A stretch of DNA of 64,000 nt from an uncultured virus (IMG/VR IMGVR_UViG_3300030106_006575) (Duplodnaviria > Heunggongvirae > Uroviricota > Caudoviricetes): the IMG/VR virus record IMGVR_UViG_3300030106_006575; one strand, 5' to 3'. Both the position numbers and the translations under genes were made by a program. Within the stretch, counting starts at the first letter, position 1. Each line of letters starts with the position of its first letter. Below, piece by piece: positions 29,001 to 59,569 of this stretch. The notes below the pieces were generated by a model, which did not search any database, had not been told where the DNA came from, and saw only the letters and a list, made by a program, of their open reading frames with translations.

Positions 29001-29495
29001 GACGAACGCTTCACCGGAATGAGGCACTTTTGGTCTGCTATCGCTGTGGATCGCCCTCGTAAGCTAAAGAATCTTGAAGAGAACATTAAGCTTTATGCTC
29101 CCGAAGGTGATTTTACCGAGGAAGAGAAGATCCAGTCACTTGTTGACCTGACCGGACAGTTCCCGATTCATCGAGTGGTGAAAGAAGATATTATGGAAAA
29201 GCTAAACGCCATGGCGATTCCCCCCATTTCTGAGTATGACCCAGATTTGCAAGTTGTTTGGCTGGTGCCTCGTAAGATTACACCGAAGAAGACCAAGAAC
29301 GGAAAAGATTATTTAGTTGTTGACGCTACAGATTCCAATTCTTCTAATATTCGTATCCGTTGTTGGGGTGTTGATATCAGAGGTGGGGATAATATTGAGA
29401 TTAACAAACCCTACCTTATCCGCCCACAATACAATCTAGAGTGGGGGTTTTCCACTAGAGGTCGTGCATTTAAAACTTGGAAAGCTCTTGCATAG
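26013..29495 (+). CDS. dnaE: DNA polymerase III alpha subunit
   Basis: PHP domain (LHAHS, TDHG, ADSHY), GRGSAAGSLV, PDIDYD, KFDLLGL, YGFNKSHA. N gap at 26655-26664. Confidence 0.96.
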   Translation: MSKIPFVGLHAHSVAGSIFDALGYPQEHMNFAYENGMDALALTDHGNMNGLAWQVLHAKKMQAEGKDFKPIFGCEAYFVPSIAKWRDEYESIMQDKKAARAAKKEETSGATVEDEEASKKATRSILNRRRHLVLLVQNQTGLNNLFKLISESYQPENFYRYPRLDFDLLEKYNEGIIASSACLGGVYAGCYWENREEGKEAVLGAMRDVTERMVXXXXILDAMRETTKRMIEVLGDRWYGELQWNNIPEQHELNKYIIQVCKEFGVQMISTADSHYPNPDAWRDRELYKRLGWLGKGRPSWGGDGELPIDVDEIGYELYPKNGDQMWESYKKYSELCGVEYDDQLVYDSFTTTHFIAHERIDSFMPDNTVRLPDFVIPVGETADSALRKFCFEGLRAKNLHKNDEYTERLEHELSVIADRGFSKYFLTMNEIATITNKVMLTGPGRGSAAGSLVAYALDITQVDPLKYGLQFARFLRADAKDYPDIDYDVAEPMELKELLVEKWGNDVVAPISNWNTLQLKSLIKDISKLYDIPFQEVNAVTGKMMFEATVAAKQKHGIRAGVYTPTFEEVKEFSSTLRAFLAKYPNVATHVDALYGQVRSCSRHAGGVVIAEDLDTHMPLISSKDVRQTPWSEGQNVRHLEPMGFIKFDLLGLSTLRMIEGAIRHVLKRYEGIENPSFKDVMSYYNNKLHPDVIDFNDQKVYKNVFQKGKWAGVFQFTETGAQNLCKQVQPKNLIDISAITSIFRPGPLSANVDKDFVKTRRSPGMVTYMNEMHREVTEETNGFLIFQEQIAMLAHKLGKDLSLDEGNMLRKVLTKKGTGKAAKVKKALHGKFIQGCVDKGMNKSAAERLWETFEYFSGYGFNKSHAVSYSMISFQCAWLLNYYPECWMAAFLDKEPETRKEKAIAIAKQFGFEIEPLSVNTSGRVWEISEDGKKLIQPLTSIKGLGDAAIDQIFIGRPFEKIEEFLFNEDMRYSKLNKKSLDVLVRSGALQPLVDERFTGMRHFWSAIAVDRPRKLKNLEENIKLYAPEGDFTEEEKIQSLVDLTGQFPIHRVVKEDIMEKLNAMAIPPISEYDPDLQVVWLVPRKITPKKTKNGKDYLVVDATDSNSSNIRIRCWGVDIRGGDNIEINKPYLIRPQYNLEWGFSTRGRAFKTWKALA

Positions 29496-29538: not shown

Positions 29539-30060
29539 ATGAATATATTTCCAATTGAAGGCAACGAAGAAACAGGCGAGATTGACTGGATTAGGTCGGC
29601 TCAATCACAAGACAACTATCGTGTCGTAAAGATGATATTAGAGTCTTGTCAGATTCTGAGCACAGTTCTTAATGAACAAGGTATCAAGGCTCCATATCGC
29701 TCATTCAATCCAAAGCATCCGTCTTGCCTGTGGGCAGCGGAGAGTTCTGATAACTTTCTAAAGCTGGCTATGCACTGTTCAGCAATGATTGGTGAATATA
29801 AAGCAAGATTTGGTAAAGTTCATAAATGCACGGATGTATTGATAGAGATTCTGGATTTGTTTGATGAGACGCGATTTGCAAACCACAAGCCCACACCGAT
29901 TCGTATGGCTATGCCGGAGCATTTTAAGAGCGACAATCCAGTAATATCATATCGCAAGTATTATGCCAGCAAGCCACGGATTCGATACCCAGAGAACAAA
30001 GTGCCATTATGGTTTGATGAATACCGTGGCTCTGAACCATACGAGGTGATTAGTGAATAA
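29539..30060 (+). CDS. Pyrimidine-dimer DNA glycosylase-like protein
   Basis: MNIF, VVKMILESCQILST, HP.CLWA, RFGKVH, AMP, YR.YY. Confidence 0.75.
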   Translation: MNIFPIEGNEETGEIDWIRSAQSQDNYRVVKMILESCQILSTVLNEQGIKAPYRSFNPKHPSCLWAAESSDNFLKLAMHCSAMIGEYKARFGKVHKCTDVLIEILDLFDETRFANHKPTPIRMAMPEHFKSDNPVISYRKYYASKPRIRYPENKVPLWFDEYRGSEPYEVISE

Positions 30061-31069
30061 CTTAATAGTTGATATTATAGTTGGGCTCCAAGCAGGAGAT
30101 GAGGGAAAAGGAAAGGTTACCCACAACCTTTTAAGGGAACGCGACTACACACACTGCGTTCGTTATAATGGGGGCGGTAACGCCGGACACACTATCTACC
30201 ATAATGGACAAAAGTTCGTTACCCACGCTGTTCCTGCCGGCATTTTTTATGGTATTAAATCTATTATTGGACCTGGCTGTGTTTTGGATATTAATAAGTT
30301 CTTTGAAGAAGTCCAGATGCTTAATAATGCTGGAATCAATACTGATGGACTAATCTTTATTTCTAAAAACGCACACATCATTCAGCCGGAGCACTTGGCC
30401 GAGGATGGTAAAGATACCAAGATTGGTACTACCCGCACAGGTAATGGACCAGCGTATCGCGACAAGTATGCTCGCAAAGGTGTTAGGGCACAGGATGTCG
30501 ATGCACTATTGCCTTACCTTATCGACTTCTACTATGAAATGCACTATAATGTGAAACCTGTTGTAGCTCTTTTTGAAGGCGCTCAAGGCTTTCAACTGGA
30601 TGTCGATTGGGGAGACTACCCATATGTTACTTCGAGCCACTGTACGTCGGCTGGAGCGCTCCTAAACGGCATTCCTCCCCAAGCTGTCCGCGAAGTGTGG
30701 GGTGTCGCAAAGATGTACGAGACTTATGTGGGGACAAAGGAGTTTCAGCCCAAAGGAGACATCTTTAAAGACCTTCAACGGGCAGGTAATGAATTTGGTG
30801 CGACAACTGGTCGCCCACGGCAATGCAACTGGCTAAATATTGAAGCACTAATCAGATCTGTCGCGATGAATGGGGCCACACACGTCGTCTTTAATAAAGT
30901 GGATATTTTACGAGATGTGGGGTCTTGGCGTCTTCGACTCAATAATCGGTCAAGGAGCGAGATGATTTTTCAAAAAGAAGAACAAATGATTAATTATCTT
31001 GAAAATAGTTTCCCAAATACAACCTTGTATTTCTCGGATAATCCAGAAACTTTTGATTTATGTGCTTGA
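30053..31069 (+). CDS. purA: Adenylosuccinate synthetase (short form)
   Basis: GDEGKGK, GG.NAGHT, IGTT.TG.GPAY.DK, EGAQG, YPYVTSS, GATTGRPR. Confidence 0.92.
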   Translation: MNNLIVDIIVGLQAGDEGKGKVTHNLLRERDYTHCVRYNGGGNAGHTIYHNGQKFVTHAVPAGIFYGIKSIIGPGCVLDINKFFEEVQMLNNAGINTDGLIFISKNAHIIQPEHLAEDGKDTKIGTTRTGNGPAYRDKYARKGVRAQDVDALLPYLIDFYYEMHYNVKPVVALFEGAQGFQLDVDWGDYPYVTSSHCTSAGALLNGIPPQAVREVWGVAKMYETYVGTKEFQPKGDIFKDLQRAGNEFGATTGRPRQCNWLNIEALIRSVAMNGATHVVFNKVDILRDVGSWRLRLNNRSRSEMIFQKEEQMINYLENSFPNTTLYFSDNPETFDLCA

Positions 31070-34345: not shown

Positions 34346-35083
34346 ATGAGCAAAAAACCACTTTTAAACGAAACAGTAATTCGGCAGTTTATGAAATATG
34401 CCAACATTGAGCCTTTGGCAGACAATTTCATTAATGAAAACTATGTCGAAGAAGAGGTCAACGAGGAGGTTGTTGAAGAGGAAGAGCAACTTGAAGAGAT
34501 TGCCCCCTCGGTCAGCCTGGAAGAAGCAGAGCACGATATGGATGCTGTAGGCGCCGATATGGACGTTGATGAGCTTGGCGACGAAGAAGAGCCCGTAGCT
34601 GACGAAGCCCCCAGCGAAGAAGAACTCCCGCCAGAAGCTGTTAACGCTCTAGAGCAAGCAGTTGAAGCTGCTGCCGACGCGATGTTGAGCGCCCTTGCAC
34701 CATACGGTGTAGAAGGTGAAGCCTCAATCGAAGGTGGTGAGGAAGCCGATATCGATTTGGAACCAGCCATGGACGACATGGACGACATGGGCGATATGGG
34801 CGACGAAGTTCCTGTTGATGACATGGGCTTGGTAGATGACGGCGAAGACGAGCCAGGACGACGCCCTGGTAAGCCCGGACAAAAAGCCCGACCGCCAACA
34901 CATATCAAAGTAAAAGAAGGCGAAGAAACCCTTGACGAAGAAGATATCGTCAACGAAACAGTTAAAAGAGTGATGGCTAGACTTTCCGAGATGAAAGCAC
35001 AAGCCGAAGCTGCTGATAAGAAAGATAAAATGATTGAATCTGTGACCGAAGCAATCCTTGCTCGGCTTAACACTAAAAAGTGA
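34346..35083 (+). CDS. Highly acidic protein, candidate prohead scaffold/core protein
   Basis: LLNE/INE/LEE motifs, D/E-rich, preceded by ACTATTTATTATAG (34307) and AGGAG. Confidence 0.6.
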   Translation: MSKKPLLNETVIRQFMKYANIEPLADNFINENYVEEEVNEEVVEEEEQLEEIAPSVSLEEAEHDMDAVGADMDVDELGDEEEPVADEAPSEEELPPEAVNALEQAVEAAADAMLSALAPYGVEGEASIEGGEEADIDLEPAMDDMDDMGDMGDEVPVDDMGLVDDGEDEPGRRPGKPGQKARPPTHIKVKEGEETLDEEDIVNETVKRVMARLSEMKAQAEAADKKDKMIESVTEAILARLNTKK

Positions 35084-35101
35084 TTAAATAAAATATGAAC
35101 T

Positions 35102-35136
35102 ATAAACCACGGTCAATGACCGTGGTTTATTTTATT
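35102..35136 (+). terminator. Intrinsic terminator
   Basis: Perfect inverted repeat ATAAACCACGGTCA/TGACCGTGGTTTAT plus T tract. Confidence 0.75.
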
Positions 35137-35146
35137 GAGAATAGAA

Positions 35147-35545
35147 ATGCATTTTGATATAAGTTCCTTGATTCTGGGTATGGTAGCTGGGATAATCATT
35201 CACCGGGTCGTAAGTTCTTTTTACGATCTAGGGCAAATCGGACTTTATATCATAGAAGTAGAGAAAAACGCTCTGATAATGTTGGCTACAGTAGCCGAGT
35301 CTATTTCCTACATTCAGACGATTAAGCACAATACTATGTCTGACCTAGGTTTGTCGGAAAACCTGATCAAGACTACTAAAAACGTCGATAACTATAACTT
35401 TGATGCGTGGAAGAACGCAGCGGTCAGCAATTTGTTGGCAGCATATCCAGAGAAATATAAAAACTTTCCACGCTATGTTGATTGGTCAGCCGCAATGAAA
35501 TATTTGGATAAGATATACAAACAAGGATTAAGGGGGAGCAAATGA
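35147..35545 (+). CDS. Hypothetical membrane-anchored protein
   Basis: N-terminal hydrophobic segment. Confidence 0.6.
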   Translation: MHFDISSLILGMVAGIIIHRVVSSFYDLGQIGLYIIEVEKNALIMLATVAESISYIQTIKHNTMSDLGLSENLIKTTKNVDNYNFDAWKNAAVSNLLAAYPEKYKNFPRYVDWSAAMKYLDKIYKQGLRGSK

Positions 35546-51953: not shown

Positions 51954-52601
51954 ATGACATCGCTGAAGTATCAGATAGNNNNNNNNNNTTTAGCCCGCGT
52001 TTACGAGCATATGATGGCACACGAAACCGCCGCGATTACTGCTTTCCGAGATGATCCTCTTGATGGTTCAAAGTGTTCTGACACCGCAGTCGTTGAAGAA
52101 CCAACCGAAGAGGAGGCTTTGAAGGTTAATCTGCGTAGAAACAAAGAACTTAAAGCAGTGCTCTTGTCGATGCACTACGGCGTTACAAAGGTGGCTGGCT
52201 CCTACATCGAAGCCTTCGGAACCGAGGCAGCACGAGAAGTAAGCGAGCAATCCTTTATGGTTGTGAACCTCGTCGATGACCCTGGCTTTCAAGATAACAT
52301 TAAAATGCTAGGCGAAAGATTCTGTCAAGACTCAGTTCTAATCGTGCCAAAGGGCGGAAAGGGAGCTTATCTCTACGGAACCAACAGTTCGGAATTCCCC
52401 GGCTTTGGTGAGAGCTTTCAGACCGGCGATTTCAAAGGCGGCGAGGAAGCTGAGTTTATGAGCCGTGTCGATGGACGACCATATACGTTTGGTGAAGAAC
52501 TCAATGAAGAAATCACCTTAGAGACACTCGCAGACCACGGACGGAATTCTCGCTGGGTGATTCGCAAAATCTCAGATAGAATCTTGAATAAATCGTCTTG
52601 A
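51954..52601 (+). CDS. Putative SAM lyase (T3 SAMase-like); start uncertain because of N gap at 51979-51988
   Basis: ITAFR, VN.RRN, YG, GSYIE, EQSF.V, F.QDSVLI, AYLY, DGRPY order matches T3 SAMase motifs as recalled. Confidence 0.55.
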   Translation: MTSLKYQIXXXXLARVYEHMMAHETAAITAFRDDPLDGSKCSDTAVVEEPTEEEALKVNLRRNKELKAVLLSMHYGVTKVAGSYIEAFGTEAAREVSEQSFMVVNLVDDPGFQDNIKMLGERFCQDSVLIVPKGGKGAYLYGTNSSEFPGFGESFQTGDFKGGEEAEFMSRVDGRPYTFGEELNEEITLETLADHGRNSRWVIRKISDRILNKSS

Positions 52602-52651
52602 CATTTTCTTGACATCTTTTGCTTGACTTCCGAATATCTCAGTGTTATAAT
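52598..52651 (+). promoter_or_regulatory. Sigma70 promoter with upstream TTGACA-N5-TTGACA box
   Basis: Box at 52598-52614; TTGACT-17-TATAAT at 52623-52651. Confidence 0.7.
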
Positions 52652-52672
52652 GTATAGACAAATGGGGGAACT

Positions 52673-53110
52673 ATGTCATTCATTAAACTAAACGACCAAA
52701 TGCACACTAAATTTTTCACCGTCGCAGAGGGTGATTGCCGCTCCCATTCTGACACACACGGGGAGGTTTCAATCCAGAGCGACACGCAAAGTTGGCCCAC
52801 CGAAGTATATCTGTTCAGAAGCCGGGAAGATGCTGGACAATATGTGCGAGATTACTGGGAAGATTTTGTCAACCATGAATCCTCGGAAGAGGTTGTCGCC
52901 ATGCTCGGCGCTGAAACTCTCATTTCGTGGGCACTTGGTCGGTTAGCCGGTCCCGGCACTATCAAGGTCAAGAGCTTAGAAGAGTGGTTGGACCTGTATC
53001 TTGACGTACCCGAAGAGCATTTTGAAGAAGAATTCGATGTGGATGCCATTGGTGAAAACATCGTTGAAATCTTAGGTTTCAAGCCCGCAGTCGCGTTTTG
53101 GAACAACTAG
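52673..53110 (+). CDS. Hypothetical acidic protein
   Basis: Directly downstream of the promoter, GGGG RBS. Confidence 0.65.
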   Translation: MSFIKLNDQMHTKFFTVAEGDCRSHSDTHGEVSIQSDTQSWPTEVYLFRSREDAGQYVRDYWEDFVNHESSEEVVAMLGAETLISWALGRLAGPGTIKVKSLEEWLDLYLDVPEEHFEEEFDVDAIGENIVEILGFKPAVAFWNN

Positions 53111-53111
53111 T

Positions 53112-53480
53112 ATGGAGCGACCGCAAGAAGAAATTGAATGGCATTTCGAGCGTTTCTGCGAGCTTATCCAGAAGATGCAAGACGAGCGCACTAAAATTAG
53201 CCTTATGGAAATAACTTATAAAGTTAGAGTTAGAAAGGGGCATAAATACTGGAAAATCTTTATTGATGAAGAAGAATATGTGCCGTGGCTTAACGAAAAT
53301 ACAGTCCAACGTGCCGACATTTTTGGCTTTGTACGCCGAAAAGATGGAGCCATCTTCCGTGCCGCATCATACAAATCACCAGAAACTCGCACCAAAAGTG
53401 CAATAAGAGGGTATGTGTACGACCCAAATCCAGAAGAATACTTTACAGAATACGGAATTATTTATGCGGAGGGAACATAA
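53112..53480 (+). CDS. Conserved phage hypothetical protein
   Basis: KY.KI...FGFV...G.IF.AASYK.P...RG pattern. Confidence 0.7.
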   Translation: MERPQEEIEWHFERFCELIQKMQDERTKISLMEITYKVRVRKGHKYWKIFIDEEEYVPWLNENTVQRADIFGFVRRKDGAIFRAASYKSPETRTKSAIRGYVYDPNPEEYFTEYGIIYAEGT

Positions 53481-53482
53481 CA

Positions 53483-53986
53483 ATGGCTGCTAAACATTTA
53501 TCTGCCCGTGAAAACTGGCAAAAGAAAGCAAGCGAGATCGGCATTAGAGGCGAGATCACCCTTGCTGCCGCCCTTCGCTGCACCTTTCCACGGCAATACG
53601 AGGTGATAGAGAAGCCACCTAAGTTGTGTATTTACCCGGAAAGGCCAGGGAAAAAACGGAAAGGCATTTGCCCAGATATAAAGATTATCAATCATAACAC
53701 GGGCAAGTCTCTATATCTTGAGAAGAAGACGGGTGACGCATGCGCCGGCAATGCGCATAATCGTGCCGGCGTGTATATGGGAGGAGGTAGAAAACGTGCT
53801 GTCCGTCGCGTCGATCCTAGCGTGGCCGATGAGCCTTTCTTTATAGTGTTCTCTGGAGCCACTTTCCAACTCGAAGAATACCAAGACAGGATAAAAGTTG
53901 ACTTCGAGTGCACACCCCACGCTATAATGGACCCAGATTTTGCGAATATTAACGAAGTTGCAAAGCGGATCATGGAGATTGTATGA
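53483..53986 (+). CDS. Putative type II restriction endonuclease (PD-(D/E)xK, MunI-like)
   Basis: PD.KIIN..TGKSLYLEKK, GNAH; ATGA-coupled to the methylase. Confidence 0.55.
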   Translation: MAAKHLSARENWQKKASEIGIRGEITLAAALRCTFPRQYEVIEKPPKLCIYPERPGKKRKGICPDIKIINHNTGKSLYLEKKTGDACAGNAHNRAGVYMGGGRKRAVRRVDPSVADEPFFIVFSGATFQLEEYQDRIKVDFECTPHAIMDPDFANINEVAKRIMEIV

Positions 53987-54984
53987 AGCCACTGTTTATG
54001 TGGGCTGGCGGTAAAACCAAGTTGCTCGATACTTTTGCTGAACACCTACCAGAAAGTTTTGATACATACATTGAGCCTTTCTTTGGTGGTGGAGCTATGT
54101 TTACATGGGCACACTCCAAAAATCCAGATGCAAAGTTCGTAATTAACGATATAAATCCATACATTATGGAGATTTATCGTACAATCAAAAATGATTTGCA
54201 GCAGTTTTACAATATCCTTGATGACTTGGAAGCTAAGTATATCGCACTTGCGCCGCCAACTTACAAGAAGATTGTTTATCTGGATGGCAAGAAGAAGACG
54301 AAGTGGGTTCCCCACGAAGACGGCAAGCCGGACAAAGACCTGGAGAAAAGTCATAAATTAAAGGGCAATACTTACGATTGGGATAGCATTTATCGCCTTC
54401 GTCCTTCCCGTCGAACTTTTTTCTTTAAGGCACGGGCTTTATATCAGGAAAATCTGCATAACTGGAGTGTAACCCGGCGTTCGGCATATCTTTATTTTTT
54501 AATGAAAACGGCGTTTAATGGTGTTTGGCAAGCCAAGGCTGGTACAGATATTTTTAACACTCCATGCGGGCTGATGAGACAAAAAGATACCATTTATGAT
54601 AAAGACAACGTGTTGCTCTGGAATAAAGCACTTCAGAAGGCGACTATTTTGGATGGGGATTTCCAGCAAGCATTAAGTCACGCTTCTGGTAACGCATTTG
54701 TTTATTTAGACCCTCCATATCGCGGAGGCTTCGCAGATTACAACACCAAGAAAGATGATGATTTTCAAGAATTAGTTATTAAGTTTTTTGAAAACTGTAA
54801 AAGTAGAGGCTCATACTGCCTTTTGTCGAATCGTGACTTGGGCGACAGCTTCTTCTTGTCAAGAAAAGGAACTAACAAGCTGGTATATTTCGATGTGACT
54901 TATACTGTCGGCAGAAAGAAGAAGACTGAAGATGGTGGTCACGAAGCCACAAAAGCACGCGAGATATTGATGATAGGACAGTAA
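53983..54984 (+). CDS. DNA N6-adenine methyltransferase (Dam/D12 class)
   Basis: WAGGK, YIEPFFGGGA, INDIN, YLDPPY. Confidence 0.92.
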   Translation: MKPLFMWAGGKTKLLDTFAEHLPESFDTYIEPFFGGGAMFTWAHSKNPDAKFVINDINPYIMEIYRTIKNDLQQFYNILDDLEAKYIALAPPTYKKIVYLDGKKKTKWVPHEDGKPDKDLEKSHKLKGNTYDWDSIYRLRPSRRTFFFKARALYQENLHNWSVTRRSAYLYFLMKTAFNGVWQAKAGTDIFNTPCGLMRQKDTIYDKDNVLLWNKALQKATILDGDFQQALSHASGNAFVYLDPPYRGGFADYNTKKDDDFQELVIKFFENCKSRGSYCLLSNRDLGDSFFLSRKGTNKLVYFDVTYTVGRKKKTEDGGHEATKAREILMIGQ

Positions 54985-54996
54985 TAAGCTATATTT

Positions 54997-55073
54997 GCCC
55001 CTTTAGTTCAGTTGGTTAGAGCACCCGGCTCATAACCGGATAGTCGCTGGTTCGAGTCCAGCAGGGGGCACCA
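54997..55073 (+). tRNA. tRNA with CAT anticodon, most similar to tRNA-Ile2 (lysidine type)
   Basis: Cloverleaf: GCCCCTT/AGGGGGC acceptor stem, CTCATAA loop, GTTCGAGTC T-arm, encoded CCA. Confidence 0.9.
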
Positions 55074-55093: not shown

Positions 55094-55147
55094 TTGACAT
55101 TTTCTTTACAATTAATCATTGACATACGCCTCGATTGGTAGTATAAT
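55094..55147 (+). promoter_or_regulatory. Sigma70 promoter with upstream direct-repeat box
   Basis: TTGACA-N5-TTTACA, then TTGACA-17-TATAAT. Confidence 0.7.
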
Positions 55148-55417: not shown

Positions 55418-55591
55418 ATGCAGCCTTGGATAATAGAAGAACTGGAACAACTAAGACAGCAAAGGGATCGAAAAACAGAGGTACAACCTTATCTTACGAT
55501 CCCCAATCCAATGTGGGAATATCCGCCAGATGATGAATGTGCAGATGATAATGAGGGTGTTGCGATTGTAGACTTTGAAATTAAATTATGA
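55418..55591 (+). CDS. Small hypothetical protein (57 aa; not in ORF track)
   Basis: GAGG RBS; MQPWIIEELEQ...GVAIVDFEI. Confidence 0.55.
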   Translation: MQPWIIEELEQLRQQRDRKTEVQPYLTIPNPMWEYPPDDECADDNEGVAIVDFEIKL

Positions 55592-55795
55592 GAAAAGACA
55601 GGCGCAAACCCTATTGTCCATAACAACAATAAAGGATTAGGACGGTGTTCAATGCCAACGACGAACACCCTAAACCCGGTTAGGAGGCTTTTTATTATGA
55701 TAGCCAAGAAGCGAAAAGCAGTTGACGGTTGGCTGGGGTGGTGGTCCCGCACCGAGGATATGCGGAATCCGGCGTTTGTGCCTGTCTTTTCTCTC

Positions 55796-55850
55796 TTGAC
55801 ATTTACTTGACAATTTAAGTCTTTACTTTTCTATCAAATGGTTGTATAAT
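55796..55850 (+). promoter_or_regulatory. Sigma70 promoter with upstream direct-repeat box
   Basis: TTGACA-N5-TTGACA, TTTACT-17-TATAAT; nearly identical to 61698-61752. Confidence 0.7.
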
Positions 55851-55880
55851 ATATAAGTAAGGTCAAGGAGGGCTAACAAC

Positions 55881-56102
55881 ATGGCAGCAAATTTAGATAA
55901 CGTAATGACTTGGGAACAGGCATGTATACAGTTTGAAGCTGTGATATTGCCCTGTGTGGTGGCAGAGTACGAGCAGGATGGGCGACCTGATTGGCCCGCT
56001 CGCTCCGAGGCTTGGAACAACTGGACCGACGCGCTCTGTAAGGGCGATCAGATTTCTGATTGGCAGTACGAGAACTGGTCACAATCACCATTGTGCGGAT
56101 AG
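55881..56102 (+). CDS. Small hypothetical protein
   Basis: AGGAGG RBS; EAWNNWTDALCK.G.I..WQY motif. Confidence 0.7.
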   Translation: MAANLDNVMTWEQACIQFEAVILPCVVAEYEQDGRPDWPARSEAWNNWTDALCKGDQISDWQYENWSQSPLCG

Positions 56103-56112
56103 GAGGTATATT

Positions 56113-56484
56113 ATGGGAATTAGAAGCGAAGTAGCGATTTGTATGAAAGAGTGTGTGCATAGGCACCTGTCCCCAGAAGCAAGGAAGTTCCTTAAAGAAT
56201 GGCATTTTGAGGAAAGGGAGCGGATTAAAACTGGTGAGGATGCTGGTAGGTTATTCCACACAAGCGACGTGAAGTGGTATTCAGATAGTTACGAGGATAT
56301 TATAGCTTTTATGCGGCATCTTCACGAGGAACATGATGAGGATGATTGGCTGCTGATTAATGCGTGCCCCGAATATCCGAATGATGATACTGGTGATGCT
56401 GGGGGCTGGTATGAGAATCCTTGGAATCTTTACAAGCGCGTATCTGTAGATTTAGATTGGGATTATGCGGAGGTCCAATTATGA
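56113..56484 (+). CDS. Hypothetical protein
   Basis: AGGAGGT RBS; MGIRSEVAI...VKWY. Confidence 0.7.
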   Translation: MGIRSEVAICMKECVHRHLSPEARKFLKEWHFEERERIKTGEDAGRLFHTSDVKWYSDSYEDIIAFMRHLHEEHDEDDWLLINACPEYPNDDTGDAGGWYENPWNLYKRVSVDLDWDYAEVQL

Positions 56485-56726
56485 GAGAGGAAGTATATAT
56501 TTGCACTTATGAACACAAGCATGGCGAGGATACATCAGTCCATTGGACGATGGAAGGGGCAGAAGCCTATCTTCGCCAACTTGCTAGAGAGAACCTTGAA
56601 GAATGGGGGGAAGACCTAACACAATACAGCGATGATGTTGATGCTTGGAATGAGGTATGGCGTAACTGGCACGATATTGCAGGTATGACCGAGTTTATGC
56701 GAATCGAAGTGCATAAAGTACATTAA
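56481..56726 (+). CDS. Hypothetical protein
   Basis: GGAGG RBS; ATGA coupling. Confidence 0.65.
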   Translation: MREEVYICTYEHKHGEDTSVHWTMEGAEAYLRQLARENLEEWGEDLTQYSDDVDAWNEVWRNWHDIAGMTEFMRIEVHKVH

Positions 56727-56771
56727 CAACAAAGGATAATATAGGATGAATCTGATAAGTCAGAAATAAGT

Positions 56772-56981
56772 AACGGGTGAATGAGGCAGGTAAACACAAG
56801 TGCGAGTTATCCTCCGCTTGTGTAACATTGGAAGCGTTCAAAGCCAGACACGAACGCATGGCACAACAAGCGCCGAGGCTGTATTGCTCAAGACTCGCTG
56901 TGTCTAGGCCGAAAGGTAGTTGAAAGCTGGATAGCGAGGGAGACGCGGTAAAGACAGCGACCCCTACCTCATTCGCCCGTT
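56772..56981 (+). ncRNA. Putative structured non-coding RNA (unassigned family; strand assumed from flanking genes)
   Basis: 15-bp closing helix 56772-56786/56967-56981 enclosing several hairpins and a GAAA tetraloop; no + strand ORF. Confidence 0.55.
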
Positions 56982-57038
56982 TTAAATTCTTAACTTTTAA
57001 ACTTAACAACCAACAAAACCTTCATTATGGAGTTTATA

Positions 57039-57365
57039 ATGAAAACAGTCACAGCTAGCAATCTACGAGTACAGTTTACAGATATTCTAAAAGACCTTTC
57101 AACTGGTCCGGTCAACATTACTAAACACGGCAAGACAATTGCAGTCCTTACAAGCCCTGAGAGCCCCGTGAAGCGCGTTTCAAGGGTAGCCCCGACTATA
57201 GACCCGTTTGGCTCTTACGAAGAGCCTAGCGAGCCAGTACAGGCACTTATAAACGTCCTCTCCGATGACGAAGATGATGAGGGAGAGCCGCCCGACTGGG
57301 ACGCTCAGATGGAGGCAGACTTTGATAGGTATATAGAAAATATGATTGAAACAAATACAGCTTGA
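57039..57365 (+). CDS. Phd/YefM-type antitoxin domain protein with acidic tail
   Basis: MKTVTASNLR..F..IL.....GPV.ITKHGK.IAVL. Confidence 0.75.
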   Translation: MKTVTASNLRVQFTDILKDLSTGPVNITKHGKTIAVLTSPESPVKRVSRVAPTIDPFGSYEEPSEPVQALINVLSDDEDDEGEPPDWDAQMEADFDRYIENMIETNTA

Positions 57366-57382
57366 AGCTGGCTTTACCACAC

Positions 57383-57437
57383 TTGACATTTTCTTTACAA
57401 TTTAGGGCTGGACTTCCAGCCCATTTGGTTGTATAAT
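57383..57437 (+). promoter_or_regulatory. Sigma70 promoter with upstream direct-repeat box
   Basis: TTGACA-N5-TTTACA, TGGACT-17-TATAAT. Confidence 0.65.
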
Positions 57438-57443
57438 ATATGT

Positions 57444-57626
57444 ATGAATGAGAAAATAAAAGTCGGTGATATTGTAGTTCGGACATACGGGGAAGGAGAA
57501 CGCCCCCGTGGATTCGTTTTAGGGAAGCGCTACGTCGATGGGTTGATAGTCCGATGGTTTGGGCCAGCAATGAAAGAAGAAGTTATTAGTGCAAGATACT
57601 TGGAGGTTATAAATGAAAGTCGGTGA
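57444..57626 (+). CDS. MKVGDLV-family small protein (possibly leaderless)
   Basis: IKVGDIV...LEVINESR; ATG 7 nt after the -10 box. Confidence 0.7.
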   Translation: MNEKIKVGDIVVRTYGEGERPRGFVLGKRYVDGLIVRWFGPAMKEEVISARYLEVINESR

Positions 57627-57849
57627 TTTGGTAATGTTTAAGCACAATAACCCCACCTATTCAAAGTGGTTTGGCGGTGAGCTTGGTATTGTAATAAGCT
57701 ATACAGCCAAAGCGCCAGATGGTCATGCTCACTGTCGCGTTCAGTGGGTTAGACCAGTTAAATACTTTAAAAGTTGGACTACAAGTTCTGACTTTAAGGC
57801 CGATAATTATGAGGTTGTCAATGAAAGTCGGCGATTTAGTAACTTATAG
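57613..57849 (+). CDS. MKVGDLV-family small protein
   Basis: MKVGDLV...LGIV...VQW...YEVVNESR. Confidence 0.75.
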   Translation: MKVGDLVMFKHNNPTYSKWFGGELGIVISYTAKAPDGHAHCRVQWVRPVKYFKSWTTSSDFKADNYEVVNESRRFSNL

Positions 57850-58000
57850 CTCGCCATCGATAACTGGCAACTTTATCGGTCTAGTCACTGAAACTGGTAT
57901 TTGGACGGGCAATTGCGATGTAAAAGTTTTGTGGTGTGGTGATTCTCAGGCACAAACGTATAAAAGTGCTTACTTGAAGGTCATCAATGAAGGTCGGTGA
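57821..58000 (+). CDS. MKVGDLV-family small protein
   Basis: MKVGDLV...IGLV...VLW...LKVINEGR. Confidence 0.75.
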   Translation: MKVGDLVTYSSPSITGNFIGLVTETGIWTGNCDVKVLWCGDSQAQTYKSAYLKVINEGR

Positions 58001-58190
58001 TTTAGTAAAGTTGAAACCAAACGCAGCGGAAGGAAATGCTGAAAGCGTAGGTTTGGGGGTTGTTATCAAGGAGGGAAAAGATGAACATAATCAGGAGTTT
58101 GCATATGTTGTATTTCTGAAAATGCAAGGCAAACCTTGGTTTCGCTACAAAACAGAGTTGGAATTAGTTGAAGATGTCAAGAAAATGTAA
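57987..58190 (+). CDS. MKVGDLV-family small protein
   Basis: MKVGDLVKL...LGVV...LELV. Confidence 0.75.
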   Translation: MKVGDLVKLKPNAAEGNAESVGLGVVIKEGKDEHNQEFAYVVFLKMQGKPWFRYKTELELVEDVKKM

Positions 58191-58236
58191 AGACTAGTCT
58201 ATACACGTTGACTTTCTTTTACTACTATGGTATATT
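58175..58236 (+). promoter_or_regulatory. Sigma70 promoter with inverted direct-repeat box
   Basis: TGTCAA-N5-TGTAAA, TTGACT-17-TATATT. Confidence 0.6.
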
Positions 58237-58258
58237 ATTAAGACAAGGGAGGAGAACA

Positions 58259-58501
58259 ATGTTAGAAGCACTTTCTAAGATTAAAGAGGAGCAAGACAGA
58301 GCCCAGGTATTGAGGGTCGAGTTGGAGCAGATAGCCAAACTCGATTCACTGGGCATAACTCGACACAATATTGTGAAGCAGCGCAAGCGCGTCCAATGGC
58401 TTGACGGAAACAAGCGGATAGAAACAGGTGAGGCCGACATCATTATGCGAGATGGAACCAGGCATATTGTTCCGGCAAGGCTTTTGAAATGGAATAAATA
58501 G
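58259..58501 (+). CDS. Hypothetical protein interrupting the array
   Basis: GGAGGAG RBS. Confidence 0.65.
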   Translation: MLEALSKIKEEQDRAQVLRVELEQIAKLDSLGITRHNIVKQRKRVQWLDGNKRIETGEADIIMRDGTRHIVPARLLKWNK

Positions 58502-58526
58502 CGGGAATACAATAAGGGAGAGAATC

Positions 58527-58757
58527 GTGCAGGTTGGTCAAACAATAGAAATCAAGGCTCTTTCCGGCGCAAGTCGGCGTACAAAGAACAGAATCAGAGA
58601 GCGTGGCTCGCAGGGGTTTGTGGTCAGTCAACCACCCCAGCCTGTAAGATTCTCCAATTCCAGAGGAGTTGACTGGGTTTTGCTTGACTCAAAAGATTCG
58701 GATTGGTCTGGTTGGCTCCCTGTCGATGAAATCGAGGTCATCAATGCAAGTCGGTGA
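58527..58757 (+). CDS. MKVGDLV-family small protein (variant)
   Basis: MQVGQTI...W.GW...IEVINASR. Confidence 0.7.
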   Translation: MQVGQTIEIKALSGASRRTKNRIRERGSQGFVVSQPPQPVRFSNSRGVDWVLLDSKDSDWSGWLPVDEIEVINASR

Positions 58758-58896
58758 TTTGGTGAGGTTTGTTGATTGCTTTGGCAACGATATAAGGTTG
58801 GGGCTTGTGCTTATTGCCGATGTTGATTATGCGAAAGTGTTGGGCATCGGATGGGTGCGACGAAACCAATTGGAGGTGCTCAATGCAAGTCGGTGA
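58744..58896 (+). CDS. MKVGDLV-family small protein
   Basis: MQVGDLVRF...LGLV...LEVLNASR. Confidence 0.75.
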   Translation: MQVGDLVRFVDCFGNDIRLGLVLIADVDYAKVLGIGWVRRNQLEVLNASR

Positions 58897-59047
58897 TTTG
58901 GTACAGAACTGGGCCGACGGTATTGGAGTTCTTATCAGGAAAGTTAGTGATTTTGACGGTGATGTTTGGTGGCTTGTCCAGTGGGCACACGGCGAGCGTG
59001 ACACGCTTAACGAGCGTTTGATGGAGGTTATCAATGCAAGTCGGTGA
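58883..59047 (+). CDS. MKVGDLV-family small protein
   Basis: MQVGDLV...IGVL...VQW...MEVINASR. Confidence 0.75.
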   Translation: MQVGDLVQNWADGIGVLIRKVSDFDGDVWWLVQWAHGERDTLNERLMEVINASR

Positions 59048-59207
59048 TTTAGTAAAGTTCAAAGGAGATATTGGAGTCACCCGACCCAGCCCTCTCTTTC
59101 TTATTCTGGATATTATAGCTCACACCACACTTGTCGTTAGTCTCCAGACGAACCATAAAATGTGGGGGGACAAAGCGGCTTATGAGGTTATCAGTGAAAG
59201 CCGGTGA
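59034..59207 (+). CDS. MKVGDLV-family small protein (not in ORF track)
   Basis: Manual translation MQVGDLVKFKG...YEVISESR. Confidence 0.7.
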   Translation: MQVGDLVKFKGDIGVTRPSPLFLILDIIAHTTLVVSLQTNHKMWGDKAAYEVISESR

Positions 59208-59382
59208 TTTAGTAAGGTTGAAGAGCCTGCCCGAAGAGTGCGGCAATGTCGGACTTATAACTAGGATATTACACACTAGTGTTAATACAGGACAGATTGT
59301 CTTTCTCGCCAATGGCACAAAACGCTCCGTTCCTTGGTTTAAACGGGATGAATTCTTGGAGGTGATTAGTGAAAGTCGGTGA
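59194..59382 (+). CDS. MKVGDLV-family small protein
   Basis: GTG start; KAGDLVRL...VGLI...LEVISESR. Confidence 0.75.
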   Translation: MKAGDLVRLKSLPEECGNVGLITRILHTSVNTGQIVFLANGTKRSVPWFKRDEFLEVISESR

Positions 59383-59569
59383 TTTAGTAAAGTTGAAAAG
59401 CAAGCTAAAGAAGAAAGTCATGCAGATGTATGAAACATCAGACCATCCCTATTCGATTTCTCTTATTGTCGCTCCCGGTCGCGACAGAGTTTTGATTGAG
59501 AGCTTGAAAACTGGCTCTAGAGCGTGGGTGCGAAAGCAATCTATTGAGGTAGTCAGTGAAAGTCGGTGA
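59369..59569 (+). CDS. MKVGDLV-family small protein
   Basis: MKVGDLVKL...IEVVSESR. Confidence 0.75.
   Translation: MKVGDLVKLKSKLKKKVMQMYETSDHPYSISLIVAPGRDRVLIESLKTGSRAWVRKQSIEVVSESR

What the first reader, a model, noticed from the sequence alone, without database searches (positions are those of the whole stretch)
56772..56981. ~210-nt multi-helix non-coding RNA candidate with a possible pseudoknot
Seen: in a gene-dense genome, a ~310-nt gap contains a 15-bp closing helix (AACGGGTGAATGAGG 56772-86 / CCTCATTCGCCCGTT 56967-81, one G-U). Inner helices: ACACAAG/CTTGTGT (56794-800/56817-23), GCGTTC/GAACGC (56834-39/56852-57), CTCGCTG/TAGCGAG (56894-900/56932-38), and a GCC-GAAA-GGT tetraloop. 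Loop sequence AGACAC (56846-51) is complementary to GTGTCT (56900-05). The G-U pairs and GNRA loop favour a + strand RNA. It does not match tRNA, tmRNA, RNase P or group II domain V by eye. It sits directly upstream of an antitoxin-like gene. Inference: a novel phage sRNA, ribozyme or protein-sponging RNA.
Basis: partly seen in the sequence, partly recalled or inferred. Interest (0 to 1): 0.7.

Follow-up and report, generated by a model that had tools for sequence, protein, structure and literature searches.

The report
New pseudoknotted RNA family in marine phages
The flagged stretch is a real folded RNA gene, one of two related copies in this uncultured marine phage, and it belongs to a previously uncatalogued RNA family that sits among the phage's tRNA genes and whose job is still unknown.

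Summary
Window 56772-56981 (+) folds far better than shuffles (z -5.4). It is not a one-off. A paralog lies at 55590-55793 (z -4.9). I collected 23 distinct full-length relatives of that paralog ("B-type") and 3 more relatives of the flagged element ("A-type"), all from uncultured marine phage contigs. Base-pair counts support three features: a 12-23 bp closing helix (16 of 20 pairs change on both sides), a hairpin P3, and an H-type pseudoknot between the P3 loop and a downstream strand (4 of 6 pairs; 0 of 500 shuffles reach the observed scores). A covariance model built from B-type sequences alone finds the flagged element end to end (38.5 bits, E about 2e-7). G-U outnumbers A-C 40 to 7, so the RNA is read from the + strand. 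Rfam 15 has no match. Members lie in tRNA-gene regions. My best guess is a stable small RNA excised from early transcripts that binds a protein. The family is well supported; that function is only inferred.

The parts
56772..56790 (+). Element A, P1 5' arm (15 bp, one C/A mismatch, then 3 bp)
   Evidence: P1 is paired in 4 of 4 A-type copies, with different arm sequences in each.
56794..56823 (+). Element A, insertion hairpin specific to the window copy (ACACAAG.../...CTTGTGT)
   Evidence: It is absent from the 3 other A-type copies.
56834..56857 (+). Element A, P3 hairpin: GCGUUC, 12-nt loop AAAGCCAGACAC, GAACGC
   Evidence: The inner GUUC/GAAC is invariant in 27 of 27 sequences; the outer pairs covary.
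56844..56847 (+). Element A, pseudoknot 5' strand (CCAG, inside the P3 loop)
56908..56917 (+). Element A, P4 mini-hairpin GCC-GAAA-GGU
   Evidence: GCC/GGU in 2 copies, GUC/GGC in L172, GCA/UGC in L305.
56918..56925 (+). Element A, conserved linker AGUUGAAA
   Evidence: AGUUGAA is present in 4 of 4 A-type and most B-type copies.
56927..56930 (+). Element A, pseudoknot 3' strand (CUGG)
56932..56944 (+). Element A, A-type purine-rich block UAGCGAGGGAGAC. CGAGGGAGAC is invariant in the 4 A-type copies.
56939..56962 (+). Element A, P5/P6 two-part hairpin: GG/CC, then CGC/GCG, then a G-C pair closing the 7-nt loop GUAAAGA
   Evidence: In B-type copies the loop-closing pair is G-C (17) or A-U (6).
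56963..56981 (+). Element A, P1 3' arm
55590..55793 (+). Element B, the B-type paralog. P1 is 55590-55609 with 55774-55793. P3 is 55644-55669. The pseudoknot pairs GCCAAC 55654-59 with GUUGGC 55728-33. P4 is 55711-19. P5/P6 is 55743-55770.
   Evidence: 160.6 bits.
54997..55073 (+). tRNA-Met gene 517 nt upstream of element B (conserved neighbourhood)
55418..55591 (+). Small conserved ORF (57 aa, ends ...VDFEIKL). Its stop codon abuts the P1 5' arm of element B.
   Evidence: The same ORF end precedes B-type copies in many loci. It has no Pfam or PHROG family.
55822..55850 (+). Promoter-like site (TTTACT-17-TATAAT) directly downstream of element B
   Evidence: A similar TTGACA-rich motif followed by TATAAT lies downstream of most B-type copies.
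57027..57365 (+). Phd/YefM-like ORF downstream of element A (neighbour only, not part of the element)
   Evidence: 30.0 bits against a cut-off of 29.8. It is not conserved next to the other A-type copies.

Best explanation
Element A (56772-56981, + strand) is a genuine structured non-coding RNA. It is the divergent "A-type" member of an uncatalogued two-subtype RNA family of uncultured marine myovirus-like phages. The window also carries the "B-type" paralog at 55590-55793.

Shown: the shared fold.
- A long closing helix P1 (12-23 bp) joins the 5' and 3' ends.
- A variable AU-rich hairpin follows.
- Hairpin P3 has an invariant GUUC/GAAC stem. Its 12-nt loop pairs with a strand 30-90 nt downstream, giving an H-type pseudoknot.
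- Variable hairpins are inserted in the long pseudoknot loop.
- A small, usually GNRA-capped hairpin P4 is followed by the linker AGUUGAAR.
- A subtype-specific purine-rich strand comes next.
- A two-part hairpin P5/P6 closes the core.

Inferred: how it works. The RNA has no promoter of its own. It is co-transcribed with small early genes and tRNA genes. It is then released by host nucleases, with P1 either cut as double-stranded RNA or acting as the barrier that stops exonuclease trimming. It persists as a compact, stable 140-215-nt RNA that acts in trans by binding a host or phage protein.

Confidence that it is a real, conserved, + strand structured RNA family is about 0.9. Confidence in the stable trans-acting RNA-protein mechanism is about 0.35. 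The figure given below blends the two.
For: Fold strength: z -5.40 for A and -4.89 for B.

Family:
- 38 pattern hits collapse to 24 distinct B-type sequences.
- 23 full-length ones were aligned (A3). One 5'-truncated sequence (L288) was dropped.

Pair counts on A3:
- 94.7% of 908 cells are paired.
- 25 of 42 pairs change on both sides.
- 0 of 500 shuffles reach any of the five observed measures.
- Slid controls give 31-40% paired.
- P1 has 16 of 20 pairs with changes on both sides; the pseudoknot 4 of 6; the loop-closing pair in P6 is G-C (17) or A-U (6).

Strand: G-U/U-G 40 against A-C/C-A 7. Model R1 scores B at 160.6 bits on + and 21.1 on -.

A belongs to the family:
- R1 was built without any A-type sequence. 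It matches 56771-56982 over model positions 1-188 at 38.5 bits, E 1.9e-7. The next unrelated hit is 17 bits, and that hit is a plain terminator hairpin.
- Three more A-type copies score 52, 48.6 and 44.9 bits.
- Their P1 arms all differ and all pair.

Combined core alignment of 27 sequences: 88.2% paired, and the pseudoknot again has 4 of 6 pairs with changes on both sides.

Compact tertiary fold: two distant positions read G,G (17) or A,A (10) in 27 of 27 sequences.

Context:
- tRNA genes lie within about 0.03-1.9 kb of a member in the window and in 4 of the 7 homolog loci scanned, plus L248.
- No promoter-like site was found directly upstream of A or B, but promoters lie after B and after the Phd-like gene.
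- Near-complete relatives carry one copy of either type (G002 B only, G005 A only).
Against: - Nothing is known about expression. No RNA run covers the elements.
- The ends of the RNA, its stability and any partner are all inferred.
- Ascertainment: most B-type sequences were found with a pattern that required GGTGGTCCCGC-N11-GCGGAA. The invariance of P5/P6 in the B-type is therefore partly by construction. P1, P3, the pseudoknot, the loop-closing pair and the G,G/A,A pair lie outside the fixed letters.
- The A-type rests on only 4 sequences.
- Model E-values are rough because calibration was shortened.
- The shuffle control does not correct for relatedness between sequences.
- No RNase III gene was found in 4 related contigs, so any P1 cleavage would have to be done by the host.
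- P1 of 12-15 bp in A-type copies is short for a classical RNase III site.
Confidence: 0.5

Rival explanations
1. A cis-acting processing and stability element. The long helix P1 is a host double-strand RNase site that separates the cistrons of early polycistronic transcripts. The compact pseudoknotted core protects the new 3' or 5' ends from exonucleases. No trans function is involved.
For: The elements lie between genes or at the ends of transcription units, on the same strand as all genes. The P1 of B starts at the stop codon of a conserved ORF and ends just before a promoter. P1 is a nearly perfect 12-23 bp duplex.
Against: About 45 invariant core nucleotides, a covarying pseudoknot and a long-range G,G/A,A correlation are far more than a nuclease site or end-cap needs. 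The neighbouring genes differ between copies.
Confidence: 0.22
2. A new class of self-cleaving ribozyme that cuts the polycistronic early or tRNA-region transcripts.
For: The size, the pseudoknot, the many invariant junction nucleotides, the closing helix of variable length and the phage intergenic location near tRNAs fit the general profile of small ribozymes (general knowledge).
Against: No known ribozyme family in Rfam matches. No cleavage site can be proposed from the sequence. Nothing here tests catalysis.
Confidence: 0.1
3. A processive antitermination RNA of the put/EAR kind. The nascent RNA binds the RNA polymerase that made it and lets it read through downstream terminators into later genes.
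For: It is an intercistronic position inside early operons. EAR is also a pseudoknotted RNA between genes (recalled). A weak terminator-like hairpin lies downstream of A at 57405-57422.
Against: In most B-type loci a fresh promoter follows immediately, which makes read-through unnecessary. No Rfam family of any kind matches. The long P1 is not a feature of those RNAs.
Confidence: 0.08
4. A riboswitch or cis-regulator of the downstream antitoxin-like gene.
For: Element A ends 46 nt upstream of the Phd-like ORF.
Against: The downstream feature differs in every A-type copy whose downstream sequence is known: the Phd-like ORF in the window, a tRNA-Leu in G003, and an unrelated 69-aa ORF followed by tRNA-Leu in G005. 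For most B-type copies it is a promoter. P1 does not overlap a ribosome-binding site in the window copy.
Confidence: 0.03
5. Not an RNA: a DNA-level inverted repeat (origin, recombination or packaging site), or a chance fold.
For: The - strand also folds better than shuffles (z -4.51), as any inverted repeat would.
Against: G-U 40 against A-C 7. The model scores 160.6 bits on + and 21.1 on -. A pseudoknot and hairpins are maintained by compensatory changes.
Confidence: 0.02

Closest known systems
Phage T4 stable RNAs rnaC and rnaD (species 1 and 2 RNAs) in the T4 tRNA gene cluster
   Same: They are small (119-139 nt) non-tRNA stable RNAs encoded within a myovirus tRNA-gene region and co-transcribed with tRNAs (T4 annotation). 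A 2022 paper still calls their functions 'yet unknown' (PMC9697503, passage read).
   Different: There is no detectable homology. Model R1 gives no hit at either gene with filters off; the best overlapping hit is 3.8 bits, E 2.4. The T4 rnaC sequence ends in a tRNA-like T-arm (read). The present family has none, and has a long closing helix and an H-type pseudoknot instead.
Orphan structured RNA candidates from comparative genomics of viral metagenomes (8,495 IMG/VR csRNAs of PMC10690425; Rfam metagenome motifs)
   Same: The discovery logic and evidence type are the same: conserved intergenic structure with covariation in IMG/VR and marine contigs, and function unknown.
   Different: It is not in Rfam 15. 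Whether it is among the 8,495 candidates could not be checked. Files 1-4 of that paper's supplements were not searched (too large, timed out or beyond the fetch limit) and the files that were searched held no occurrence of the 4 contig ids. I saw only passages of the paper, which give those candidates a mean length of 67 nt, against 138-215 nt here.
Bacterial Y RNA-like RNAs (YrlA) bound by Ro60/Rsr
   Same: The 5' and 3' ends form a long closing stem around a structured module. YrlA is found in some phages and near tRNA-like sequence (recalled).
   Different: The Rfam YrlA model does not hit any element; its only sub-threshold hit lies on the two adjacent tRNA genes of L248. No TROVE/Ro60 gene was found in 4 related contigs, 2 of them at least 90% complete. 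There is no tRNA-like T-arm.
phi29 packaging RNA (pRNA)
   Same: Similar size. The paired 5'/3' ends form a long helix. A hairpin loop is complementary to an internal strand and the two covary. In pRNA that pairing is intermolecular (recalled).
   Different: No Rfam hit. The hosts here are T4-like myoviruses, not phi29-like podoviruses. Covariation cannot tell intramolecular from intermolecular pairing. The genomic position is among early genes and tRNAs.
Retron msr-msd non-coding RNA
   Same: Inverted repeats at both ends close a structured RNA of 150-250 nt (recalled).
   Different: No reverse transcriptase was found in 4 related contigs or among the window ORFs scanned. The conserved core is a pseudoknot rather than the msd hairpin.

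Membership tests
Any Rfam 15 family | Covariance-model match at or near the gathering score | tested here: not met
   - Whole window at gathering thresholds: only 2 tRNAs.
- E<=10 around A: 0 matches.
- E<=10 around B: 1 spurious 10.5-bit snoRNA hit outside the element.
- E<=5 on 10 homolog loci: 5 matches, all on the tRNA genes of L248.
New family defined here (model R1) | Full-length match to a model built from B-type sequences only | tested here: met
   A scores 38.5 bits, E 1.9e-7, over model positions 1-188 at 56771-56982.
New family defined here (model R1) | P3 loop pairs with the strand that follows AGUUGAAR (pseudoknot) | tested here: met
   A pairs CCAG with CUGG. Family-wide, 4 of 6 pairs change on both sides and 88.7-91.3% of cells are paired.
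T4 rnaC/rnaD | Sequence and structure homology to the T4 genes | tested here: not met
   R1 with filters off over T4 68000-76000 gives no significant hit at 70908-71171.
T4 rnaC/rnaD | Location in the phage tRNA gene region | tested here: met
   tRNA genes lie within about 0.03-1.9 kb in the window and in 4 of the 7 homolog loci scanned (L305, L291, L292, L026), plus L248.
Retron ncRNA | Adjacent reverse transcriptase gene | tested here: not met
   RVT_1 was found in 0 of 4 related contigs. None of the window ORFs scanned is an RT.
Y RNA / YrlA | Match to the YrlA model, tRNA-like module and a Ro60 partner | tested here: not met
   No YrlA hit on the elements. TROVE was found in 0 of 4 related contigs. 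Host Ro60 is not testable because the host is unknown.
Riboswitch | Conserved position in the 5' UTR of a functionally coherent gene set, with an expression platform | tested here: not met
   The downstream features differ: a Phd-like ORF, a tRNA, an unrelated ORF, or a promoter.
Self-cleaving ribozyme | Site-specific self-scission | not testable with these tools
   This needs an in-vitro cleavage assay. No known ribozyme model matches.
phi29 pRNA | Intermolecular loop-loop pairing that forms a ring on the portal | not testable with these tools
   Covariation of the loop-strand pairing fits either intramolecular or intermolecular pairing. No Rfam hit.

The most novel reading that the evidence does not exclude
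The family is a new functional RNA class. One possibility is a new self-cleaving ribozyme. The other is a phage-made stable RNA that captures or mimics a substrate of a conserved host factor, such as a nuclease, a tRNA- or ribosome-associated protein, or a defence protein. In that reading the two subtypes carry different invariant purine-rich recognition strands on one pseudoknotted scaffold. It would be a sequence-tractable counterpart of the unexplained stable RNAs of the T4 tRNA cluster.
Probability: 0.2. Interest if true: 0.85.

Novelty: new variant of a known kind. Interest (0 to 1): 0.62.

Why it matters
Phage-encoded structured RNAs other than tRNAs are few, and their functions are mostly unknown. 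The small stable RNAs of the T4 tRNA cluster are still described as being of unknown function (PMC9697503).

This family supplies:
- a well-defined fold supported by covariation, including a pseudoknot;
- two natural subtypes that differ in one conserved single-stranded block;
- a fixed genomic setting among tRNA genes;
- occurrence across many marine samples.

That is enough to design probing, cleavage and pull-down experiments, and to add a family to RNA databases. If it proves catalytic, or proves to target a host factor, it would be a new tool of phage-host conflict in the ocean. If it is only a processing element, it is still a useful marker for annotating early operons of this uncultured phage clade.

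Tried and rejected
- **Close phage relatives by DNA.** blastn/megablast of A, of B and of a 10-kb stretch against 50,697 phage records found no match.
- **Flanking small proteins as handles.** The 81-aa ORF and the Phd-like ORF have no relatives in viral contigs or phage records.
- **Closing-arm 15-mer scan.** 25 stretches, all matching the seed only.
- **P3-motif scan in viral contigs.** 59 stretches, 3 of them true members.
- **A-type 16-mer scan.** 9 stretches, 1 true.
- **Bacterial and archaeal genome scan with the B-type 3' motif.** 1 stretch, in a Halomarina genome. It matches only part of the model at 16.5 bits, so I take it as chance.
- **Weak R1 hit at window 35074-35223 (17 bits).** It is an ordinary terminator hairpin.
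- **Targets for the purine-rich blocks.** Complements in the window occur no more often than in shuffles.
- **Expression.** No RNA holder is listed for the elements. One run guessed to be RNA (X20) gave contigs only over 55842-56192, outside both elements. This says nothing either way.
- **Own-genome search.** No genome is held for this window.
- **Earlier findings of this scan.** Nothing relevant.
- **Literature.** Four motif strings occur only in unrelated primer-type contexts. A word search found the IMG/VR csRNA paper, but files 1-4 of its supplements were not searched.
- **Extra helices considered and not adopted.** These were (a) the segment 5' of P3 with GGUGGUGG(UCC), which is complementary in several B-type copies but in shifting registers and not in all, and (b) the pyrimidines after P1 with GGGG, which cannot covary because the G's are invariant.
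- **Resemblances recalled from memory and rejected as unsupported.** T-loop, SRP Alu domain, CRISPR repeat mimic, sarcin-ricin loop, RNase P P4.

Full report
**1. The observation**

As RNA, the + strand of 56772-56981 folds to -84.8 kcal/mol. Two hundred dinucleotide-preserving shuffles give -61.6 +/- 4.3 (z -5.40, none as good), and the centroid structure equals the MFE structure. The - strand gives z -4.51 with a much weaker centroid. The closing helix has 15 pairs with one U-G. It continues for three more pairs after a C/A mismatch.

**2. No known family**

- Rfam 15 at gathering thresholds finds only two tRNAs in the window.
- With E up to 10 it finds nothing in 56600-57150.
- In 55500-55900 it finds one spurious 10.5-bit snoRNA hit outside the second element.
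- With E up to 5, ten loci holding homologs gave five matches, all on the tRNA genes of one locus.

**3. The window**

All large ORFs are on the + strand. They include a tail sheath, a T4-type baseplate protein, a gp32-like protein, a UvsX-like protein, a DnaB-like helicase, a DnaE-like polymerase, RNR, ThyX, a PurZ-like synthetase, GroEL and ClpP. The window has no DNA match in 50,697 phage records. The best protein identities to isolates are 27-41%. DNA runs holding the stretch are marine metagenomes. It is an uncultured marine myovirus-like phage.

**4. Finding relatives**

The small flanking proteins gave no relatives, and a scan with the closing-arm 15-mer gave only chance hits. The Dam methylase 2.8 kb upstream gave related contigs: 109 relatives, 80 loci kept, the best at 82% identity.

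A blastn of the region against those loci showed two short similarities in L026/L027. One was to the P3 hairpin of the flagged element. The other was to window 55715-55772. Reading both places revealed a second element in the window, 55590-55793. It has a 20-bp closing helix (z -4.89). L027 carries a homolog of it.

Scans with consensus patterns then gave more members:
- Viral contigs: 3 true of 59 stretches, then 4 true of 6 stretches.
25 carried a strict P3 motif and a few more were true by eye.

A stricter regular expression over everything held gave 38 hits and 24 distinct B-type sequences. One is 5'-truncated (L288) and was left out. The other 23 form alignment A3.

**5. Structure of the B-type**

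The structure I named has P1, P3, a mini-hairpin, P5/P6 and a pseudoknot between the P3 loop and a downstream strand. On that structure:
- 94.7% of 908 cells are standard pairs.
- 25 of 42 pairs change on both sides, in 127 cells.
- None of 500 column shuffles reaches any of the five observed measures.
- Sliding the 3' partners by 1-3 columns drops pairing to 31-40%.

Per helix:
- P1: 16 of 20 pairs with changes on both sides, 98.8% paired.
- P3: 3 of 7; the inner GUUC/GAAC never varies.
- Pseudoknot: 4 of 6, 91.3% paired.
- The pair closing the P6 loop is G-C in 17 sequences and A-U in 6.
- The mini-hairpin scored only 50% in fixed columns. It has 2 or 3 pairs in different registers, and the L026 group lacks it.

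Examples of the pseudoknot read directly from the sequences: GCCAAC:GUUGGC, GCCAG:CUGGC, GUCAAC:GUUGAC, GCCGAC:GUCGGC, GUCAGU:ACUGGC, GCCAAG:UUUGGC.

G-U/U-G pairs number 40 against 7 A-C/C-A, so the structure is read from the + strand.

Caveat: the metagenome pattern fixed GGTGGTCCCGC-N11-GCGGAA. The invariance of P5/P6 is therefore partly by construction. All covarying features lie outside those fixed letters.

**6. The flagged element belongs to the family**

Model R1 was built from A3 alone. Run over the whole window with filters off, it gives:
- B: 160.6 bits.
- The flagged element: 38.5 bits, E 1.9e-7 (rough), at 56771-56982, covering model positions 1-188.
- B on the wrong strand: 21.1 bits.
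- Next: a 17-bit hit that is a plain terminator hairpin.

R1 also finds second, weaker copies:
- 1.04 kb downstream of the B-type copy in contig G003 (52 bits).
- 0.73 kb downstream of the B-type copy in L172 (48.6 bits).

A scan with an A-type motif gave one further copy, L305 in contig G005 (44.9 bits).

The four A-type copies share the block RCGAGGGAGACGCGGYAAAGACAGCGACC. They also share AGUUGAA, P3 and the mini-hairpin. Their P1 arms are all different and all complementary, at 12, 15, 16 and 19 positions.

The combined core alignment of 27 sequences gives 88.2% paired. The pseudoknot again has 4 of 6 pairs with changes on both sides. Four A-type rows are misaligned in P6 there and count as gaps.

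In A the conserved pseudoknot is CCAG (56844-47) with CUGG (56927-30).

The ACACAAG/CTTGTGT hairpin is an insertion found only in the window copy.

**7. A tertiary hint**

Two distant positions always agree: the nucleotide two positions after the pseudoknot strand, and the fifth nucleotide of the 7-nt P6 loop. They read G,G in 17 sequences and A,A in 10, which is 27 of 27. The A,A state occurs in the L026 group, in L217/L242 and in all A-type copies. This suggests a contact between the P6 loop and the junction, and hence a compact fold.

**8. Context**

Members lie in tRNA-gene regions.
- Window: tRNA-Met at 54997-55073, B at 55590, A at 56772.
- G003: the A-type copy is about 35 nt upstream of tRNA-Leu.
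- G005: tRNA-Leu lies 234 nt downstream of the A-type copy.
- G002: tRNA-Met lies about 455 nt upstream of the B-type copy.
- L026: four tRNAs lie upstream and tRNA-Leu downstream.
- L248: two tRNAs lie about 770 nt upstream.

Three of the seven loci scanned (L172, L225, L180) held no tRNA within their short flanks.

Most B-type copies start 0-8 nt after the stop codon of a conserved small ORF ending in ...(I/V)DFE(I/L)K. They are followed by a TTGACA-rich motif and a TATAAT box.

The scan found no promoter-like site directly upstream of A or B. The Phd-like gene is next to an A-type copy only in the window.

Near-complete relatives carry one copy only: G002 (95% complete) a B-type, G005 (90% complete) an A-type. 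The subtypes therefore look interchangeable, and the window has both.

No TROVE/Ro60, RNase III or reverse transcriptase gene is found in G001, G002, G003 or G005.

**9. Mechanism**

Shown: a conserved, + strand, pseudoknotted fold closed by a long helix.

Inferred:
- The RNA is co-transcribed with early genes and tRNAs.
- Host nucleases release it, with P1 either cut as a duplex or acting as the barrier to exonucleases.
- It acts as a stable RNA in trans, most simply by binding a protein. The invariant purine-rich strand and the P3 and P6 loops would be the recognition surface.

Rivals are a purely cis processing or stability element, a new self-cleaving ribozyme, a put/EAR-like antiterminator, a riboswitch, and a DNA element. 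The last two are disfavoured by the data above. The purine-rich blocks have no more complements in the window than expected by chance.

**10. Comparison with known RNAs**

The closest analogy in setting is the pair of stable RNAs rnaC/rnaD in the T4 tRNA cluster, still described as of unknown function (PMC9697503, passage). R1 does not match them, and rnaC ends in a tRNA-like arm that this family lacks. This is therefore an analogy and does not make the family a member.

The family may or may not be among the 8,495 IMG/VR candidate structured RNAs of PMC10690425. I saw only passages of that paper, and files 1-4 of its supplements were not searched. The motif strings do not occur in the searched literature in any relevant context.

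**11. Verdict**

The interpretation as a novel structured phage RNA is right in kind. The proposed pseudoknot, one helix and the antitoxin link are not conserved. The flagged element is the divergent paralog of a new, well-supported RNA family whose function remains to be found.

Noticed in passing
window 55590-55793: This is a second, better conserved copy (B-type) of the same RNA family, 1.2 kb upstream of the flagged element.
   Followed up: yes
window 55735 and 55756; 56933 and 56952: Two distant positions, one just after the pseudoknot strand and one in the P6 loop, are G,G or A,A in 27 of 27 family members. This may be a tertiary contact.
   Followed up: partly
window 57429-59569: A tandem array of about ten small paralogous ORFs (about 57-83 aa). 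Each starts with M(K/Q)VGDLV and ends with (I/L)(N/S)(E/A)SR. No family was found for the two that were scanned.
   Followed up: no
window 55119-55147, 55796-55850, 57373-57437: There is a perfect TTGACA-17-TATAAT promoter after tRNA-Met, and a recurring motif CTTGACATTnnCTTkACAAT followed by TATAAT. The same motif follows B-type RNAs in many related contigs. These are probably the early promoters of this phage clade.
   Followed up: partly
window 57027-57365: The Phd/YefM-like ORF matches only at its N-terminus (residues 5-46, 30.0 bits against a cut-off of 29.8). It has an acidic C-terminal half and no toxin gene beside it. It may be an orphan antitoxin-like protein.
   Followed up: no
window 51954-54984: Three neighbouring genes: a SAM-lyase-like gene (51954-52601), a weak MunI-like restriction enzyme match (53483-53986, 24.4 bits, below the cut-off) and an overlapping Dam-type methyltransferase (53983-54984).
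   Followed up: no
window 30053-31069 and 26013-29495: A PurZ-like adenylosuccinate-synthetase homolog (phrog_1211, E 1e-68) together with a DnaE-like polymerase. This hints at a modified (2-aminoadenine) genome. Not examined.
   Followed up: no
window 35104-35135: A clean intrinsic terminator hairpin with a U-tract. It shows that this phage does use ordinary terminators, which the A and B elements lack.
   Followed up: partly
L291 282-626 (- strand): In contig G003 the ORF just upstream of the A-type RNA has a CxC...CxH pattern that I recognise from memory as SWIM zinc-finger-like; no family search was run on it. The upstream neighbours of A-type copies differ between phages.
   Followed up: no
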